Origin: a virus
Lineage: Duplodnaviria > Heunggongvirae > Uroviricota > Caudoviricetes
Strand: one strand, 5' to 3'
IMG/VR virus record: IMGVR_UViG_2636416140_000003
Length of the DNA: 4,211 bases
Positions within the stretch are counted from its first letter, which is position 1; the number at the start of each line of letters is the position of its first letter. Below, in pieces: positions 1-4,211 of the stretch. Made by a program: the position numbers and the translations under genes. The notes beneath the pieces are model-generated. The model was not told the DNA's origin, did not search any database, and saw only the letters and a list, made by a program, of their open reading frames with translations.

Positions 1-66
1 CATCATACACTAAATCAGTAAGTTGGCAGCATTACCCGGTTTCTGAACCCTGGATATGTTTATCTG

Positions 67-92
67 TCCCAGCCTGTTGAATCAGGCTGGGA
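67..92. other. Perfect inverted repeat / stem-loop (T-CCCAGCCTG-ttgaat-CAGGCTGGG-A), 9-10 bp stem with 6-nt loop, about 30 bp upstream of the plus-strand ORF at 122
   Basis: Read directly: 68-76 CCCAGCCTG is the exact reverse complement of 83-91 CAGGCTGGG, and T67/A92 extend the stem. No U-tract follows on either strand, so it is not a canonical intrinsic terminator; function unknown (operator, RNA processing or structure element). Confidence 0.4.
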
Positions 93-121
93 AAAGGTAA
101 AGACAATCAAGAGGATTATTT

Positions 122-394
122 ATGGACAATAACACCATTTCTCTACAGGAGTTGCTCGACTGCATTTCCAGGCTTCGGGATGATGTAAATGCCCTCACTG
201 TTGCATTTTCATCTCTGGCCTTATCAATTCCCAGAGAACAAATGCAACCAACACTGGCATCGCTCCTGCTTGAATCACGCAACCCCAAATGGTCCCAGGA
301 ACAACAAAATTCTTTCAAGTGGCTGGCGGCATTACTGGAAGAAAAATATGCTGGTAAAATTACCATTTCGGTGGAGTCTTCAGAGAATCAGTAA
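122..394 (+). CDS. Hypothetical 90-aa protein, predicted helical and Leu/Glu/Gln-rich; family not recognised
   Basis: ATG at 122 preceded by GAGG (111-114) with a 7-nt spacer, a good Shine-Dalgarno arrangement. The protein has ordinary soluble-protein composition, whereas the overlapping antisense frame (82..366) is Ser/Cys/Arg-rich and looks like antisense noise. The 3' end overlaps the convergent minus-strand gene 360..704 by 35 nt. Confidence 0.55.
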   Translation: MDNNTISLQELLDCISRLRDDVNALTVAFSSLALSIPREQMQPTLASLLLESRNPKWSQEQQNSFKWLAALLEEKYAGKITISVESSENQ

Positions 395-704
395 TTCTTC
401 CTGGTAGCTTTCCTTTGTAGGTTATCCACACATTCTGCGCCTCTAAAATTATGGGGCGCTTTTCCGGCGACTGCTCATCCCCTTCACATAACCCGGCAGC
501 AACATCCAGGAAGACCTGTCTGATGCTCATTCTGGCTGCTGCCTCATAAAACTCCAGCGCGGCACCTTCAACACGGTCCAGCGAGATGTCCAGGTCAAAA
601 ATTTCACCGTCAAAGCGTTTTTTGTCCCGTAACGCTAAAGTTACCGTAACTTTATTCTCAAAATTGCGGATCCCTTTCACAATCAGTTCATAGTTTTGAG
701 TCAT
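360..704 (-). CDS. YdfR-like (DUF1327 family) prophage protein, 114 aa, translationally coupled to the upstream holin
   Basis: ATG at 702-704 lies 4 nt after the holin stop (709-711), and the last holin codons contain GGGGAGAG, which serves as its Shine-Dalgarno. The N-terminus MTQNYELIVKGIRNFENKVTVT... resembles, as I recall it, E. coli Qin-prophage YdfR, which lies between holin essQ and lysozyme rrrQ. Family assignment is from memory and needs a search. Confidence 0.6.
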   Translation of the reverse strand: MTQNYELIVKGIRNFENKVTVTLALRDKKRFDGEIFDLDISLDRVEGAALEFYEAAARMSIRQVFLDVAAGLCEGDEQSPEKRPIILEAQNVWITYKGKLPGRITDSLKTPPKW

Positions 705-708
705 TGAA

Positions 709-924
709 TTACTCTCCCCGTGCAGCCTTACGACGGTCCTCTCTGATTTTGAAATACAGGTTAGTCAGATATGTCAGCAGCCCAAACAGCAGACTCCCCA
801 GCACGCCTATTGCCGCCCACTGAGACGGGGAAACCCTGTCCAGCAACTGCAGGAACCAGTAGCCCGTTCCCACCGCTGACGTGGTGTATGACACACCTGT
901 TGTGATTTTTTCCATCTGGTCCAT
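709..924 (-). CDS. S: Phage holin, S21 / EssD-EssQ-type class II pinholin, 71 aa, with dual-start motif (Met1 and Met4)
   Basis: Translation [71 protein letters not shown] closely matches phage 21 S and E. coli EssD/EssQ pinholins as I recall them: two TM segments and a charged C-terminal tail. ATG at 922-924 and a second in-frame ATG at 913-915; GGAG-containing Shine-Dalgarno about 9 nt upstream. The track ORF start at 1029 is taken to be a spurious N-terminal extension. Confidence 0.85.
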
Positions 925-954
925 ACCCCGTCTCCCGTTATCCGGAAGCTGACA

Positions 955-989
955 ACAATAAAAAAGCCACCAGTTAACTACTGATGGCT
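955..989 (-). terminator. Rho-independent terminator on the minus strand, between the DUF1737-like gene and the holin gene
   Basis: Minus-strand RNA reads AGCCAUCAG-uaguuaa-CUGGUGGCU (9-bp stem including one G.U pair, 7-nt loop) followed directly by UUUUUUAUUGUUG. Confidence 0.65.
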
Positions 990-1231
990 CTGATAACTCA
1001 TGCAAGCGTCTCAGACGACCCACTGACACTACCGGTGAGTTTAACGATACCTTCCATTTGACTGGCTCACTTTTTATGATGATGCCGGTGCATTTATCTC
1101 CAGCACCAGACTTTCTATCTCAACGCCATACGTTGCATTTTTGGTAATATCCGTCAGCGTCAGTGCATTTAGTCCCACTGCCAGACTGTCTTTTATGGCC
1201 TGGAATGCCGGGCCAGTACGATGACGTAGTA

Positions 1232-1420
1232 TCACTCCGGCTCAGTTGCACCACTGACCACCACATCACCTTCTGCTGCAATCGCCTGCATCAGGGTATA
1301 AGGGGTTATGGCCACCGGACTACCAAACGGCTGCCAGCCCTCTTTCAGTTTATGTGTCAGCTTTTCCGCAAGATCTGACGGCGGCGCCGCCCTGACAACA
1401 TCATAGTGTTTAAATGCCAT
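1232..1420 (-). CDS. Small conserved prophage protein, DUF1737-like, 62 aa from the second ATG
   Basis: The ATG at 1418-1420 is preceded by GGTGGAAAG about 6-8 nt upstream; the first in-frame ATG at 1435 lacks a Shine-Dalgarno. Sequence MAFKHYDVVRAAPPSDLAEKLTHKLKEGWQPFGSPVAITPYTLMQAIAAEGD... resembles small proteins I recall from just upstream of the holin in lambdoid/Stx prophages. Family name is from memory. Confidence 0.55.
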   Translation of the reverse strand: MAFKHYDVVRAAPPSDLAEKLTHKLKEGWQPFGSPVAITPYTLMQAIAAEGDVVVSGATEPE

Positions 1421-1679
1421 GGTTCTTTCCACCATCTGAAAAATAATTCTTTAAAATACCTGACATGTAATACAGAAAAAACACAAAACCATACCTTAAA
1501 TAAAAACCTGATTATCAAGCAGATATGCATGGATAAACTACAAGACGAGATATAAACCACCCTGCATTTAAATAAACAATAAACAACATCAGAAAAATAA
1601 TTCTGCTCTATGGTTTAATTCAAAAATATCATTTATACTTTTCAGAACATCACCAGCAAGGCATAAACAAGGAAACTAA
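1421..1679. promoter_or_regulatory. AT-rich intergenic region between divergent genes (minus 1232..1420 and plus 1680..2015); probable divergent promoter region
   Basis: About 260 bp of very AT-rich sequence with many TTGxxx / TAxxxT hexamers. No single -35/-10 pair could be assigned with confidence by eye. Confidence 0.3.
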
Positions 1680-2015
1680 ATGAAGTGGATTGTGATTGAT
1701 ACAGTTATCCAGCCATCATGCGGAATATCTTTTTCAGTCATATGGAGTAAAATAAAATTAATAATCTGGTATCAATCGGATGCTTTCTTACCTCCTGAAA
1801 GTATATTTACACTGACTCACACAGGCATCATGCTCAATAACAAAGTGCTACCTGTAACCATTTACAACGTAGTACCATTCAATAAAACATTCTGGAATTT
1901 AATCAAAAACAGCCAGGAATGCCCTACAAATACAGATAACGTATTGAATGAATGCTTTAATAACCGTTGCACTCTGCAAATATGTCCTTATGGACTAAAA
2001 CAACAAAGTCCATAA
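1680..2015 (+). CDS. Hypothetical AT-rich cargo protein, 111 aa, five Cys (four in the C-terminal 30 residues); no recognisable family
   Basis: ATG at 1680 preceded by AAGGAA (1669-1674) with a 5-nt spacer. An uninterrupted 111-codon frame in such AT-rich sequence is unlikely by chance because stop codons are AT-rich. Contains 6 ATA codons (residues 16, 21, 25, 28, 42, 102), the codon read by the adjacent phage tRNA-Ile2. Confidence 0.45.
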
Positions 2016-2035
2016 GGAGTTTACTCACATCTGAC

Positions 2036-2070
2036 AAAATCAATATAAACAGCCCCTCCGGAGAGGGGCT
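2036..2070 (-). terminator. Hairpin terminator, minus-strand orientation, possibly bidirectional, between the convergent cargo ORFs
   Basis: Plus strand 2051-2070 AGCCCCTC-cgga-GAGGGGCT forms an 8-bp GC-rich stem with a 4-nt loop. On the minus-strand RNA it is followed by GUUUAUAUUGAUUUU (U-rich); on the plus strand an A-rich tract precedes it but no U-tract follows. Confidence 0.45.
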
Positions 2071-2462
2071 GGAGAGTGGCGCTATGTGCCATTGCATGGT
2101 GCCGGGTGCCTCCCGGTGAATTCAGTACCAGCACCTGAATCCGCGATTATCCCATATACCTACTCGCTGATTGCCCCTCCGCACAGGGGGATTCACCATG
2201 CCAGTTTCTTTTAACAAACTCCCCGCAAACCAGACAACAGTCAACCGCCTGAATTGTGAAGTATTTAAAAATTTCTCCCGCTAACTGATACCCGGCTAAC
2301 AGTCTGGCGTTTTCTTTTTCAGCAACGGGAAAGCAACAACCACCACACCCGCCACCAGCACACCGTCAGCCGGCACTGACATTATCCGGCTGCTGCAATG
2401 CCATTCACAAAAACAGTAAGCAATCACTTTTTACCGTAACAGGTGATAATCCAGATATGTAT

Positions 2463-2816
2463 CTACCCCAGATGAGTAATCCGAAGTTCATCCATACCAC
2501 AGGTCCTGGCTATTCTGTTGTACTCCTGAACAAGAGCAAATAATTCTGAATTAGCAACCATGAACTCATCGCAAACCCTCTGTATAGCATCACTATTCAG
2601 AATAATAACGTCTCTTCCCGAAAGACGATCAGGAGTACAGAACAAAACTGTCAAACGGCTGAAGGCCTTTGCTCGTGCTGCATTGACTATATCAATACGC
2701 TGCCTAAGGATGAAACACCCCGACGCCTCATCAATATTCACTCTACCCACACCATATGAATGATAAATACTTAATGCTGAAAAAACCATTAGACCGTATA
2801 ACAAATACTCAATCAA
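2463..2816 (-). CDS. Hypothetical cargo protein, 117 aa from TTG at 2816 or 108 aa from ATG at 2789, with an N-terminal hydrophobic segment; no recognisable family
   Basis: Codon-by-codon reverse-complement translation confirms the frame, ending at TAG 2463-2465. The first start is TTG; the first ATG is at residue 10 (2787-2789). Contains 3 AGA, 3 AGG and 3 ATA codons (9 of 117), matching the two tRNAs immediately upstream. It lies directly downstream of Q, pR', tR' and the tRNAs, the slot that stx occupies in Stx phages. Confidence 0.5.
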   Translation of the reverse strand: MIEYLLYGLMVFSALSIYHSYGVGRVNIDEASGCFILRQRIDIVNAARAKAFSRLTVLFCTPDRLSGRDVIILNSDAIQRVCDEFMVANSELFALVQEYNRIARTCGMDELRITHLG

Positions 2817-2926
2817 TACTTAACAGAACTTTTATTTTTGACAAACATATAATATTTTCAACAATATCCTGAGCCAGGTATATTTCAGTATAAGGCTCTG
2901 CCGGAAGGAATCTGGAAGAATGAATA

Positions 2927-3003
2927 TGGCGCGCTGTACTGGATTCGAACCAGTGACCGATTGCTTAGAAGGCAATTGCTCTGTCCGGCTGAGCTAACAA
3001 CGC
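2927..3003 (-). tRNA. argN: tRNA-Arg, anticodon UCU (reads AGA/AGG), argN/argU-like, 77 nt with encoded CCA
   Basis: Reverse complement is GCGTTGTTAGCTCAGCCGGACAGAGCAATTGCCTTCTAAGCAATCGGTCACTGGTTCGAATCCAGTACAGCGCGCCA. It folds as a cloverleaf: acceptor GCGTTGT/ACAGCGC (one G.U), D-stem GCTC/GAGC, anticodon stem ATTGC/GCAAT with loop CTTCTAA (anticodon TCT), T-stem ACTGG/CCAGT with loop TTCGAAT, discriminator G, CCA. Confidence 0.85.
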
Positions 3004-3103
3004 TGAATACCGATAATGGACCGCCATCGGGGACCCGCCCCCGCACCAACAACCCTGTTATCGTGTCGTCTGCTCTTCCTGATAAGCTAATGGCGGTTTG
3101 TGA

Positions 3104-3179
3104 TGGTGGCCCTTGCTGGATTTGAACCAGCGACCTGGCGATTATGAGTCGCTCGCTCTCACCACTGAGCTAAAGGGCC
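3104..3179 (-). tRNA. ileZ: tRNA with CAU anticodon, most likely tRNA-Ile2 (lysidine-modified, reads AUA), ileX/ileZ-like, 76 nt with encoded CCA
   Basis: Reverse complement is GGCCCTTTAGCTCAGTGGTGAGAGCGAGCGACTCATAATCGCCAGGTCGCTGGTTCAAATCCAGCAAGGGCCACCA: acceptor GGCCCTT/AAGGGCC, anticodon loop CTCATAA (CAT), T-stem GCTGG/CCAGC. The framework closely resembles E. coli ileX as I recall it, and Stx phages carry ileZ-argN(-argO) at this position. The CAU anticodon alone cannot exclude tRNA-Met. Confidence 0.8.
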
Positions 3180-3214
3180 GGGAGCAGAATAATAACGGTC
3201 CGTAATTAATTTCG

Positions 3215-3242
3215 CAATAAAAAACCCGCTCAGCGGCGGGTT
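3215..3242 (-). terminator. Rho-independent terminator tR' downstream of the putative late promoter (Q-antiterminated terminator)
   Basis: Minus-strand RNA reads AACCCGC-cgcuga-GCGGGUU followed by UUUUAUUGCG: a GC-rich stem of 5 GC plus 2 AU pairs and a U-tract, about 65-70 nt downstream of the proposed start site. Confidence 0.7.
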
Positions 3243-3280
3243 GTAGAAACTCTTCTAACGTCAGGCATAAAACGCCCATC

Positions 3281-3317
3281 ATTATGACGAATTTACCACA
3301 GATTCCGGAAAAATCAA
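3281..3317 (-). promoter_or_regulatory. Candidate late promoter pR' (-35 TTGATT, 16-nt spacer, -10 TAAATT) with a -10-like CATAAT element in the initial transcribed region (candidate sigma-dependent pause / Q-loading site)
   Basis: On the minus strand, 5 nt after the Q stop codon: TTGATT (plus 3312-3317), 16-nt spacer, TAAATT (plus 3290-3295), then cgtCATAAT. Lambda pR' as I recall it also uses TAAATT as its -10. Placement immediately downstream of Q and upstream of tR' matches the lambdoid late operon. Confidence 0.5.
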
Positions 3318-3322
3318 CCTTG

Positions 3323-4144
3323 TTACCTAGTTACCTTTTTTAACTGCCGCTCAGCCCATGCTTCTTCAATATCAAACCGGGTCACCAGCGCATCATAAAA
3401 TTTCTTAACTGTTTTTTCCCATGACGCGCGTGTTATCTGGTTTGTCACCTCGCATATAGCATTAAATGCCTCCGTTGATGGTAGTCTTTCATAGCCACGA
3501 CCACCACAACGCTGGCAGTCTCTGATAACAGGCATACCACGTTTTACCGACTCTTCACGATGAATGGCGACACCACGCCCACGGCAATCCTTACAGGCGG
3601 TGGAAACCTCACCCTTTCCGCCACACTCCGGACAGGCAACTTTTACCACCTCCCTGACTTTTTTCCATTCTTCCCAGTAAGACGGATACACACCTTTCGT
3701 ACACTTTGCCCATACCGGCGGCTTACCATCCGGATACTGGATCTTATTTGTAAAAACTATGCTTTCAATAAATTTTTCCCCATAGCAACAAGGGCACTGC
3801 TTTTTACTCGCTGCGCTGCGGGCATAATCCTCAAAAGCGTACGAAGCCATAATGCGCATCACTACCGGTTTTATTTCTGCCGGAAGTTTTCTCAACGCCG
3901 CCACACGATCGCACCGACTGAGTGCATAATCTGCCAGTAATTCTGTTGCCCGCGCCCTGTCATTCATACTGATGCCCATTTTCCCCAGGAACGCAGAAAA
4001 ACCCATCTCAGCCCGATTCTGTGTCATGCCCTGCGCGGCCATCACATCAGTGATACTCAGCGCATCTTTTGACGTTGAGGCCGATGCATCGGTCAGGCCA
4101 GGGGATTTTGGGGAGTAGTATTTCGGTAAATCTTCCAGTTTCAT
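3323..4144 (-). CDS. Q: Late-gene antitermination protein Q, large (273 aa) Q82/QuuQ-like type, with a Cys-rich zinc-finger region
   Basis: ATG at 4142-4144, TAA at 3323-3325. The protein has a CPCC motif and three CxxCxGxG motifs (CPECGGKG, CKDCRGRG, CQRCGGRG) within residues 117-217. It sits immediately upstream of the pR'/tR'/tRNA/holin arrangement. Family assignment is from recollection of prophage Q proteins and gene context, not a search. Confidence 0.75.
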   Translation of the reverse strand: MKLEDLPKYYSPKSPGLTDASASTSKDALSITDVMAAQGMTQNRAEMGFSAFLGKMGISMNDRARATELLADYALSRCDRVAALRKLPAEIKPVVMRIMASYAFEDYARSAASKKQCPCCYGEKFIESIVFTNKIQYPDGKPPVWAKCTKGVYPSYWEEWKKVREVVKVACPECGGKGEVSTACKDCRGRGVAIHREESVKRGMPVIRDCQRCGGRGYERLPSTEAFNAICEVTNQITRASWEKTVKKFYDALVTRFDIEEAWAERQLKKVTR

Positions 4145-4211
4145 TTTTTGACCTGCTCTTAATGCATTATGAACCGCCCCGGGAATCCTGGAGACTAAAC
4201 TTCCTGAGAAA

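What the first reader, a model, noticed from the sequence alone, without database searches (positions are those of the whole stretch)
82..704. Atypical lysis cassette: pinholin then YdfR-like gene, with a convergent overlapping ORF where the endolysin is expected
S21-type pinholins normally precede a SAR endolysin (R21 type) and Rz/Rz1. Here the pinholin is translationally coupled to a YdfR/DUF1327-like gene. Directly downstream on the minus strand there is no lysozyme-like frame; the only long minus-strand frame (82..366) is Ser/Cys-rich and looks non-coding. Instead a plus-strand 90-aa ORF with a strong Shine-Dalgarno (122-394) runs in the opposite direction and overlaps the YdfR-like gene 3' end by 35 bp, which implies mutual transcriptional interference or antisense regulation. 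Either the endolysin lies beyond the window start, or the cassette has been interrupted, in which case the prophage may be lysis-defective.
Basis: partly seen in the sequence, partly recalled or inferred. Interest (0 to 1): 0.5.

Follow-up and report, generated by a model that had tools for sequence, protein, structure and literature searches.

The report
IS1-cut prophage lysis cassette with moron
This is a common E. coli/Shigella prophage lysis cassette (holin, YdfR, a small reverse-oriented passenger gene, then the endolysin) that an IS1 element has cut 20 bases before the endolysin start; it is ordinary, except that the passenger gene is a real, conserved gene of unknown function.

Summary
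An S21-type holin (709-924, -) sits 4 nt upstream of a YdfR/DUF1327 gene (360-704, -). A 90-aa plus-strand ORF (122-394) overlaps the ydfR 3' end by 35 nt, and no lysozyme frame lies in the window.

The arrangement is not atypical. The 37-400 segment is in 1,221 of 5,426 complete E. coli genomes and in three isolated phages. There the order is holin, YdfR, ORF90 (reverse), lysozyme, spanins, and the lysozyme ATG lies 20 nt beyond window base 37.

In this window, bases 1-36 are an IS1 terminus (35/36 to K-12 IS1A), inserted exactly at that point. Bases 4170-4211 are an IS3-family terminus. The window is therefore a 4.1-kb prophage remnant between two ISs, most likely from Shigella.

ORF90 is a genuine gene. 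Its dN/dS is 0.14-0.37, and it stays open at 66-72% nucleotide identity in non-phage contexts. It has distant 81-97-aa homologs and a confident three-helix-bundle model. It has no Pfam, PDB or defence-system match.

Family members lie in reverse orientation at other places in phage late operons, so ORF90 is best read as a moron. The 82-366 minus ORF is spurious. I could not establish antisense regulation or what lies beyond the IS1.

The parts
1..36 (-). Terminal inverted repeat of IS1, on the insA-proximal side. The body of the element lies beyond the window start, with insA reading leftward.
   Evidence: Bases 1-32 are 100% identical to L014 829-860, the end of the annotated IS1A (97-864) in K-12. 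The match is 35/36 over the full repeat. All prophage relatives lose homology exactly at base 36/37.
37..121 (.). Intergenic region between the missing endolysin start and ORF90. In relatives the endolysin ATG lies 20 nt to the left of base 37.
   Evidence: Alignment A2. In UTI89 the sequence ...AACCG is followed by ATAAATCCTGATAAATATCC and then ATGAACGCAAAAATC. In the window ...AACCG is followed by the IS1 repeat.
67..92 (.). 10-bp GC-rich hairpin with a 6-nt loop, no U-tract on either strand, role unknown.
   Evidence: Folding gives z=-3.7 on the plus strand and -4.3 on the minus strand. It is imperfectly conserved in UTI89 and phiSTEC1575-Stx2k. ISEc52 is inserted within it in strain WGS1363.
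109..115 (+). Shine-Dalgarno sequence AAGAGGA of ORF90, 6 nt before the ATG.
   Evidence: Read from the sequence. DNA homology with the stand-alone homologs begins at about window 105-109, so it includes this site.
122..394 (+). ORF90, a conserved 90-aa cytoplasmic three-helix protein (phrog_2411) of unknown function. It is a moron-like gene oriented against the late operon.
   Evidence: dN/dS is 0.14-0.37 with no stops in six sequences. It matches phrog_2411 at E=9.5e-56. Distant homologs exist. The AlphaFold2 model has pLDDT 81.5. Homologs occur in non-lysis contexts.
360..704 (-). ydfR-family gene (DUF1327), 114 aa. Residues 1-74 are shared with K-12 YdfR, and the C-terminal 40 residues are specific to the ORF90-bearing variant.
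   Evidence: Pfam PF07041 at E=1.3e-41. It is 80% identical to K-12 YdfR over residues 1-74 and unrelated after that.
709..924 (-). Class II (S21-type) holin, 71 aa, with Met1 and Met4 in the sequence MDQME.
   Evidence: Pfam PF04971 at E=9e-33. It matches the PHROG 'holin' families phrog_9876 and phrog_20.
82..366 (-). Spurious 94-aa ORF, the antisense frame of ORF90 that shares its third codon positions.
   Evidence: Intact in only 21/39 unique relatives and has internal stops in L095, L096, L097 and L098. No Pfam or PHROG match.
963..991 (-). Intrinsic-terminator-like hairpin with a T-run on the late strand, about 40 nt upstream of the holin start.
   Evidence: 12-pair stem followed by TTTATTGTTG. 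This is a consensus match only.
3323..4144 (-). Late antiterminator Q, 273 aa. It defines the late transcription unit that runs through the lysis genes.
   Evidence: Pfam PF03589 at E=6e-55, with a weak DnaJ CXXCXGXG match below the Pfam cutoff.
4170..4211 (+). Terminus of a multicopy IS3-family insertion sequence, inserted 26 nt upstream of the Q ATG. This is where rusA ends in relatives.
   Evidence: It is 100% identical to repeats in 3,247 of 5,426 E. coli genomes, with a median of 3 copies. The adjacent transposase is annotated as frameshifted and carries an AL1L pseudoknot. Relatives lose homology at 4171. In UTI89, rusA overlaps the Q start.

Best explanation
The region is the promoter-proximal part of a standard lambdoid late lysis operon of the phage 21 / Qin type. 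It lies on the minus strand in the order S21-type holin, YdfR, [ORF90 on the opposite strand], endolysin, Rz/Rz1.

ORF90 is an independent, genuinely protein-coding passenger gene, a moron. It encodes a small cytoplasmic three-helix protein of unknown biochemical function. In intact phages the Q-antiterminated late transcript must read through ORF90 in antisense to reach the endolysin. By analogy with other morons, ORF90 itself is presumably transcribed in the opposite direction from its own signals, in the lysogen.

In this window an IS1 element has inserted 20 nt upstream of the endolysin start codon. An IS3-family element has inserted 26 nt upstream of Q. The window is therefore a 4.1-kb IS-bounded prophage remnant, probably in Shigella, and its holin and YdfR genes are uncoupled from any endolysin. 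It is very likely lysis-defective.

Shown: the gene identities, the IS junctions, the arrangement in relatives, and that ORF90 is coding and conserved. Inferred: the moron mode of expression, the loss of lysis function, and anything about what ORF90 does.
For: Cassette identity: Pfam hits for the holin, YdfR and Q.

Same order with the endolysin present:
- UTI89, EC958 and the environmentally isolated phage Chlobot.
- The segment is in 1,221 of 5,426 complete E. coli genomes and in 3 phage records.
- The relatives' lysozyme is homologous to PDB 3HDE, 3HDF and 4ZPU (RrrD), and it has a Gly/Ala-rich N-terminus, MNAKIKYGLSAAVLALIGAGASAP.

IS1:
- 35/36 identity to the K-12 IS1A end.
- Exact position from alignment A2.
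- Draft contigs from more than 12 samples break at the same two points.

ORF90 is coding:
- dN/dS is 0.14-0.37 in all 15 pairs, against about 1-3 in the four off-frames.
- There are no stops in six sequences at 66-92% pairwise nucleotide identity.
- The rival antisense frame is broken in many relatives.
- HMMER finds 81-97-aa homologs that align without gaps across the three helices.
- The AlphaFold2 model has pLDDT 81.5.

Moron character:
- ORF90 is absent from K-12 Qin, where ydfR overlaps rrrQ directly.
- Family members are inserted against the late genes at other positions: between the gpM-like and gpL-like tail genes and beside the terminase region.
- Others are stand-alone, next to iha/IS5, on a plasmid, and in chromosomes.

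Decay of the locus:
- The nearest relatives have lysozyme pseudogenes or truncations and many ISs.
Against: - No sigma-70-like promoter or terminator for ORF90 was found by consensus scan, in the window or in an intact relative. Independent expression is therefore not shown.
- ORF90 is not compositionally distinct from its neighbours, at 44% GC against 45% for the region.
- DNA homology with the stand-alone copies starts only about 15 nt upstream of the ATG, so no conserved promoter travels with the gene.
- What lies beyond the IS1 is unknown. An intact endolysin may sit on the other side, as it does beyond ISEc52 in strain WGS1363. Q-modified polymerase might in principle read through an IS.
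- No function can be assigned to ORF90: no Pfam, PADLOC, PDB sequence or PDB fold match.
Confidence: 0.8

Rival explanations
1. ORF90 is a lysis-control element. Either its convergent transcript (antisense to the ydfR 3' end and the ydfR-R spacer) or its protein modulates expression or activity of the holin, YdfR or endolysin. It could act, for example, as a brake on leaky late transcription in lysogens.
For: - It sits inside the lysis cassette, convergent with ydfR and overlapping it by 35 nt.
- The arrangement is kept in over 1,100 genomes.
- It always co-occurs with a distinct YdfR C-terminus that K-12 lacks.
- The holin-YdfR-ORF90 block travels as a unit even when the endolysin module is swapped, as in phiSTEC1575-Stx2k.
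Against: - Family members occur with no lysis genes nearby: in the tail operon, between dinI and bssS, in an iha island, and on a plasmid.
- K-12 Qin-type cassettes lack it altogether.
- Selection acts on the protein sequence, not obviously on an RNA.
- No known RNA family matches this region.
- No promoter was detected.
Confidence: 0.12
2. ORF90 is not a gene. The open frame is a by-product of a conserved cis-acting sequence in the late transcript between ydfR and the endolysin.
For: - The segment is less variable (17.6% of sites) than ydfR (37%) among close relatives.
- Third-position periodicity alone cannot separate the plus frame from the antisense frame.
- There is no Pfam family and no literature.
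Against: - The frame stays open at 90 codons, with the same start, at 66-72% nucleotide identity in loci that have no late transcript.
- Homologs that diverge far more in protein sequence (profile E-values 2e-15 to 3e-5) exist in other genomes and other contexts.
- Off-frame dN/dS is about 1 or higher.
- A confident helical-bundle model was obtained.
Confidence: 0.03
3. The IS1 is a simple insertion. An intact endolysin and spanin genes lie immediately on its far side, so the cassette is only split, not deleted, and could still lyse the cell if late transcription reads through the IS.
For: - In strain WGS1363 another IS (ISEc52) sits in the same intergenic region with rrrQ continuing just beyond it.
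- The insertion point spares the endolysin ATG by 20 nt.
- From general knowledge, Q-modified RNA polymerase resists terminators.
Against: - The far side could not be recovered. The junction is absent from all three collections and from all closed genomes that carry the exact YdfR.
- The nearest relatives already have a stop codon or truncation in the lysozyme.
- Q itself is cut off from its upstream operon by the IS3-family insertion.
- From general knowledge, IS-mediated deletions are common in Shigella.
Confidence: 0.3

Closest known systems
E. coli K-12 cryptic prophage Qin lysis region (essQ-ydfR-rrrQ-rzpQ/rzoQ)
   Same: It has the same holin family and the same YdfR N-terminal 74 residues (80% identity). 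In intact relatives it also has the same lysozyme family and the same gene order on one strand.
   Different: In K-12, ydfR (103 aa) overlaps rrrQ by 4 nt. K-12 has no ORF90, no 330-bp spacer and no hairpin, and its YdfR has a different C-terminal tail. The window also lacks the endolysin, because of the IS1.
Phage 21 pinholin / SAR-endolysin cassette (S21-R21-Rz/Rz1)
   Same: The holin matches the Pfam family built on P21 holin S. The relatives' endolysin is homologous to PDB 3HDE/3HDF. From memory, those entries are R21.
   Different: From my knowledge, phage 21 has S directly followed by R. Here YdfR and a reverse-oriented gene intervene, and in this window no endolysin is present.
Morons of lambdoid phages, such as lambda bor, which lies next to the lysis genes and is transcribed against the late operon (general knowledge)
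   Same: It is a single small gene present in some related phages and absent from others. It is oriented against the late genes and is found at varied positions in late operons and outside phages.
   Different: No promoter or terminator was detected. It has no signal peptide or lipobox. Composition is not atypical. It lies inside the cassette, between ydfR and R, and overlaps ydfR rather than lying downstream of Rz. Its function is unknown.
IS-disrupted cryptic prophages of Shigella and E. coli
   Same: The prophage fragment is bounded by an IS1 end and an IS3-family end. Close relatives show further IS insertions and lysozyme pseudogenes.
   Different: Nothing unusual. The only notable detail is that the ydfR-R intergenic region has been hit independently by two different ISs, IS1 here and ISEc52 in WGS1363.

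Membership tests
S21-type (class II) holin / pinholin | Sequence membership in the P21 holin S family | tested here: met
   PF04971 at E=9e-33, 112.5 bits against a cutoff of 26, covering residues 5-67 of 71. It also matches PHROG holin families.
S21-type (class II) holin / pinholin | Two transmembrane domains and a dual-start motif (holin/antiholin) | tested here: inconclusive
   Met1 and Met4 (MDQME) and two hydrophobic stretches can be read in the translation. No topology prediction was run. Residue 2 is Asp, not the Lys that I recall in S21.
Pinholin/SAR-endolysin lysis cassette | An endolysin gene downstream of the holin on the same strand | tested here: not met
   No lysozyme frame lies in the window. 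The IS1 end occupies the position 20 nt before the expected ATG. The feature is met in relatives such as UTI89, EC958 and Chlobot.
Pinholin/SAR-endolysin lysis cassette | Rz/Rz1 spanin genes downstream | tested here: not met
   They are absent from the window. They are present in relatives, as 'lysis protein'/DUF2514 and an Rz1 lipoprotein.
YdfR / DUF1327 | Pfam PF07041 match above the gathering score | tested here: met
   141.2 bits against a cutoff of 25, covering residues 1-112. PGAP annotates orthologs as 'YdfR family protein'.
IS1 | Terminal inverted repeat identical or near-identical to IS1 | tested here: met
   35/36 to the K-12 IS1A end, with the first 32 bases exact.
IS1 | Transposase genes insA/insB and a target-site duplication of about 9 bp | not testable with these tools
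   The body and far end of the element lie outside the window. The junction was not found in any collection.
Phage moron | Present in some closely related phages and absent from others, inserted between conserved genes | tested here: met
   K-12 Qin lacks it. Homologs lie between tail genes, near the terminase, and outside phages.
Phage moron | Own promoter and terminator; expressed from the repressed prophage | tested here: inconclusive
   Consensus scans found no plus-strand promoter or terminator. No expression data are available. A strong SD is present.
Phage moron | Nucleotide composition different from neighbouring genes | tested here: not met
   ORF90 has 44.3% GC, against 45.3% for the prophage fragment and 46-47% for ydfR.
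PHROG 2411 (unknown function) | Full-length profile match | tested here: met
   E=9.5e-56, residues 1-90 against profile positions 1-90 of 90.

The most novel reading that the evidence does not exclude
The ORF90 family (phrog_2411 and its distant 81-97-aa relatives) is an uncharacterised small three-helix protein that prophages repeatedly acquire in reverse orientation inside late operons. In the lysis-cassette version it, or its convergent transcript, could act as a built-in safety or timing device for the pinholin-YdfR-endolysin system, or as a lysogenic-conversion factor acting on a host target. Its co-inheritance with a variant YdfR C-terminus could reflect a functional pairing.
Probability: 0.1. 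Interest if true: 0.55.

Novelty: new member of a known kind. Interest (0 to 1): 0.22.

Why it matters
It matters little for the window itself. This is a decayed, IS-bounded prophage fragment of a kind common in Shigella, and the 'missing endolysin' is explained by an IS1 insertion.

There are two modest points of value:
- A very widespread prophage gene, present in about one in five complete E. coli genomes including UPEC, ST131 and an Stx2k phage, is shown here to be a real, selected protein-coding gene with no Pfam family, no structural match and no literature.
- YdfR/DUF1327, which sits between the holin and the endolysin in thousands of cassettes, is also functionally unknown. The two variants of the cassette, with and without ORF90, offer a natural comparison for anyone studying lysis timing in pinholin systems.

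Tried and rejected
1. Codon-position periodicity as a test of the ORF90 frame. I rejected it because the plus frame (122...) and the minus frame (...366) share third positions and give the same 1:1:2 pattern. I used dN/dS together with stop-codon integrity instead.

2. Recovering the DNA beyond the IS1.
- The exact junction search found nothing in genome contigs, viral contigs or metagenome contigs.
- Exact-protein look-ups of ORF90 and YdfR returned every contig over 1 Mb that carries them, and none has the IS1.
- The window's own lineage appears only as about 4.1-kb draft contigs, L011-L013.

3. A conserved two-gene module, meaning ORF90 plus a convergent overlapping partner that became fused to YdfR. 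The overlapping partners in L100, L115 and L119 and the YdfR tail show no similarity (all E > 0.1), so I rejected it.

4. Functional assignment of ORF90. All searches were negative:
- Pfam and PADLOC.
- PDB by sequence profile, best E=0.55.
- Foldseek against PDB, best E=2.9.
- The afdb50 library was unavailable.

5. Literature. Searches for ydfR, DUF1327, Ybl58 and essQ/rrrQ returned nothing relevant.

6. Promoter and terminator scans for ORF90 found nothing above background.

7. An Rfam scan for a known antisense RNA or cis-element in 1-1100 found none.

Full report
**What is in the window**

All the main late genes lie on the minus strand:
- Q antiterminator, 3323-4144.
- Two tRNAs, at 3104-3179 and 2927-3003.
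- A DUF1737 remnant, 1232-1435.
- A class II holin of the phage 21 S family, 709-924 (PF04971, E=9e-33).
- A YdfR/DUF1327 gene, 360-704 (PF07041, E=1.3e-41).

The holin stop (711-709) and the ydfR start (704) are 4 nt apart. On the plus strand, a 90-aa ORF (122-394) with an AAGAGGA Shine-Dalgarno overlaps the ydfR 3' end by 35 nt.

**The window ends are insertion sequences**

Megablast against 5,426 complete E. coli genomes matches only window 37-4171.
- Bases 1-32 are identical to the insA-side terminus of K-12 IS1A, and 35 of 36 match over the full inverted repeat.
- Bases 4170-4211 are identical to the end of a multicopy IS. It is in 3,247 genomes with a median of three copies. Its transposase is annotated as frameshifted with the AL1L pseudoknot, so it is an IS3-family element.
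- Draft contigs of about 4.1 kb from more than a dozen samples are 99.98% identical to the window and break at window 41 and 4164-4167, a few bases inside the two IS junctions.
- The exact ORF90 protein is labelled by its sources as a Shigella protein.

The window is thus an IS-bounded prophage remnant, most likely from Shigella.

**Where the endolysin went**

Intact relatives have the order holin, YdfR, ORF90 (reverse), 177-aa lysozyme, then Rz/Rz1. Examples are UTI89, EC958 and the puddle-water phage Chlobot.

Alignment A2 shows that the relatives continue past ...GGGTTCAGAAACCG with ATAAATCCTGATAAATATCC and then ATG AAC GCA AAA, read in late-strand orientation. In the window the IS1 repeat follows ...AACCG directly. 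IS1 therefore sits exactly 20 nt upstream of the endolysin start.

The relatives' lysozyme is homologous to PDB 3HDE, 3HDF and 4ZPU (RrrD). It has a Gly/Ala-rich N-terminal segment typical of signal-anchor-release endolysins.

I could not read what lies beyond the IS1:
- The junction is absent from all three public collections.
- It is also absent from every closed genome that carries the exact YdfR or ORF90 protein.

In the nearest relatives the lysozyme already has an in-frame stop or matches the reference only to residue 167 of 177. In one E. coli strain a different IS (ISEc52) occupies the same intergenic region, with rrrQ continuing beyond it.

**The cassette is not atypical**

K-12 Qin has essQ-ydfR-rrrQ-rzpQ on one strand, so YdfR between holin and endolysin is normal for this lineage.

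The ORF90-bearing variant (window 37-400) is in 1,221 of 5,426 complete E. coli genomes and in three phage records. PGAP annotates the plus ORF almost everywhere.

Compared with K-12, the variant replaces the YdfR tail after residue 74 and adds about 330 bp holding ORF90 and a hairpin.

**ORF90 is a real gene**

Periodicity was uninformative, because the plus frame and the 82-366 minus frame share third positions. The following evidence is decisive instead:
- In 15 pairwise comparisons at 66-92% nucleotide identity, the plus frame gives dN/dS of 0.14-0.37. It has no stop in any of the six sequences. Four off-frames give about 1-3.
- The antisense frame gives similar ratios, as expected, but carries stops. 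The 82-366 ORF is intact in only 21 of 39 unique relatives and broken in all four divergent versions.
- Two of those divergent versions lie outside any phage. One is a 90-aa gene beside IS5 and iha on a chromosome. The other is an 84-aa gene on a plasmid.
- A profile search of 1.8 billion representatives finds only 20 proteins. They include 81-97-aa homologs that align without gaps across three predicted helices.
- AlphaFold2 gives a three-helix bundle with pLDDT 81.5 and a disordered tail at residues 80-90. That tail is the part that overlaps ydfR.

**What ORF90 is likely to be**

No function can be assigned. There is no Pfam, PADLOC, PDB sequence or PDB fold match, only PHROG 2411 'unknown function'.

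Context gives the best clue:
- One distant member lies between gpM-like and gpL-like tail genes, on the strand opposite the whole tail operon.
- Another lies beside the terminase region, again opposite the late genes.
- Others are plain chromosomal genes. One lies between dinI and bssS, and another sits in a non-phage neighbourhood.

This pattern defines a moron:
- It is a single gene.
- It has been inserted repeatedly against the direction of late operons at different places.
- It is absent from sibling phages.
- It also occurs outside phages.

Other moron criteria are not met or not shown. I found no promoter or terminator, composition is unremarkable, and there are no expression data. I also found no literature.

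**Antisense regulation**

The late transcript must cross ORF90 in antisense to reach the endolysin, so collisions are conceivable. Nothing here demonstrates regulation. Family members without any lysis genes nearby argue that the protein, not the overlap, is what is selected. I give this rival about 0.12.

A 10-bp GC-rich hairpin at 67-92 (z about -4) remains unexplained. If the ORF90 transcript started at about 67 (possible -10 TATGTT at 55-60), the -35 position would be exactly where IS1 inserted. This is inference only.

**Verdict**

- The 'atypical' cassette is a common variant whose endolysin has been displaced by IS1.
- The convergent ORF is a conserved, uncharacterised moron-like gene.
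- The locus is a decayed remnant and very likely lysis-defective.
- Interest is low, with a small residual value in the uncharacterised ORF90 and YdfR families.

Noticed in passing
window 2041-2230 (-): A strong match to the Rfam sRNA family STnc100 (132 bits against a gathering score of 47, full length). It lies in the Q-to-holin interval, between the IraM-like gene and the tRNAs.
   Followed up: no
window 1680-2015 (+): A 111-aa gene oriented against the late operon. It matches phrog_4407, has a PmrD-family Pfam hit in precomputed annotations, and is named 'anti-adapter protein IraM' by PGAP in relatives and in phiSTEC1575-Stx2k. It has low GC (34.5%) and looks like a second, more classical moron in the same late region.
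   Followed up: partly
window 1232-1435 (-): A 67-aa DUF1737 ORF. It appears to be the N-terminal remnant of the large DUF1737/SASA-family carbohydrate esterase that precedes the holin in EC958-type prophages (1.85 kb there). UTI89 annotates it as an incomplete pseudogene.
   Followed up: partly
window 4170-4211 and 3323-4144: An IS3-family element with an AL1L frameshift pseudoknot is inserted 26 nt upstream of the Q start codon, in what is the 3' end of rusA in relatives. Q is intact but cut off from the early operon.
   Followed up: partly
window 3104-3179 (-) and 2927-3003 (-): ARAGORN calls tRNA-Met(CAT) and tRNA-Arg(TCT). PGAP annotates the equivalent CAT-anticodon tRNA in UTI89 and PS1Thumoskin9 as tRNA-Ile, and those relatives carry three tRNAs (Arg, Arg, Ile) where the window has two.
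   Followed up: no
L098 (phiSTEC1575-Stx2k) 1370-3388: This inducible Stx2k phage has the S21-type holin, YdfR and ORF90, followed by a second, different lysis set of two holin-like genes and an M15 peptidase. The mosaic joint falls at the rrrQ start codon and is followed by a terminator-like GC hairpin with a T-run.
   Followed up: partly
L099 (E. coli WGS1363) 260-1429; equivalent to window ~92: An IS3-like ISEc52 is inserted in the same ydfR-R intergenic region, inside the 67-92 hairpin. Two different ISs have therefore hit this 85-bp spacer independently.
   Followed up: partly
L115 4001-4476, L119 821-1325, L100 4989-5436: Distant ORF90-family genes also end in short convergent overlaps (7-20 nt) with small ORFs that are unrelated to one another, echoing the 35-nt overlap with ydfR. 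The cause is unknown.
   Followed up: partly
window 963-991 (-): A terminator-like hairpin with a T-run on the late strand, about 40 nt upstream of the holin start. Q-modified polymerase would have to read through it.
   Followed up: no
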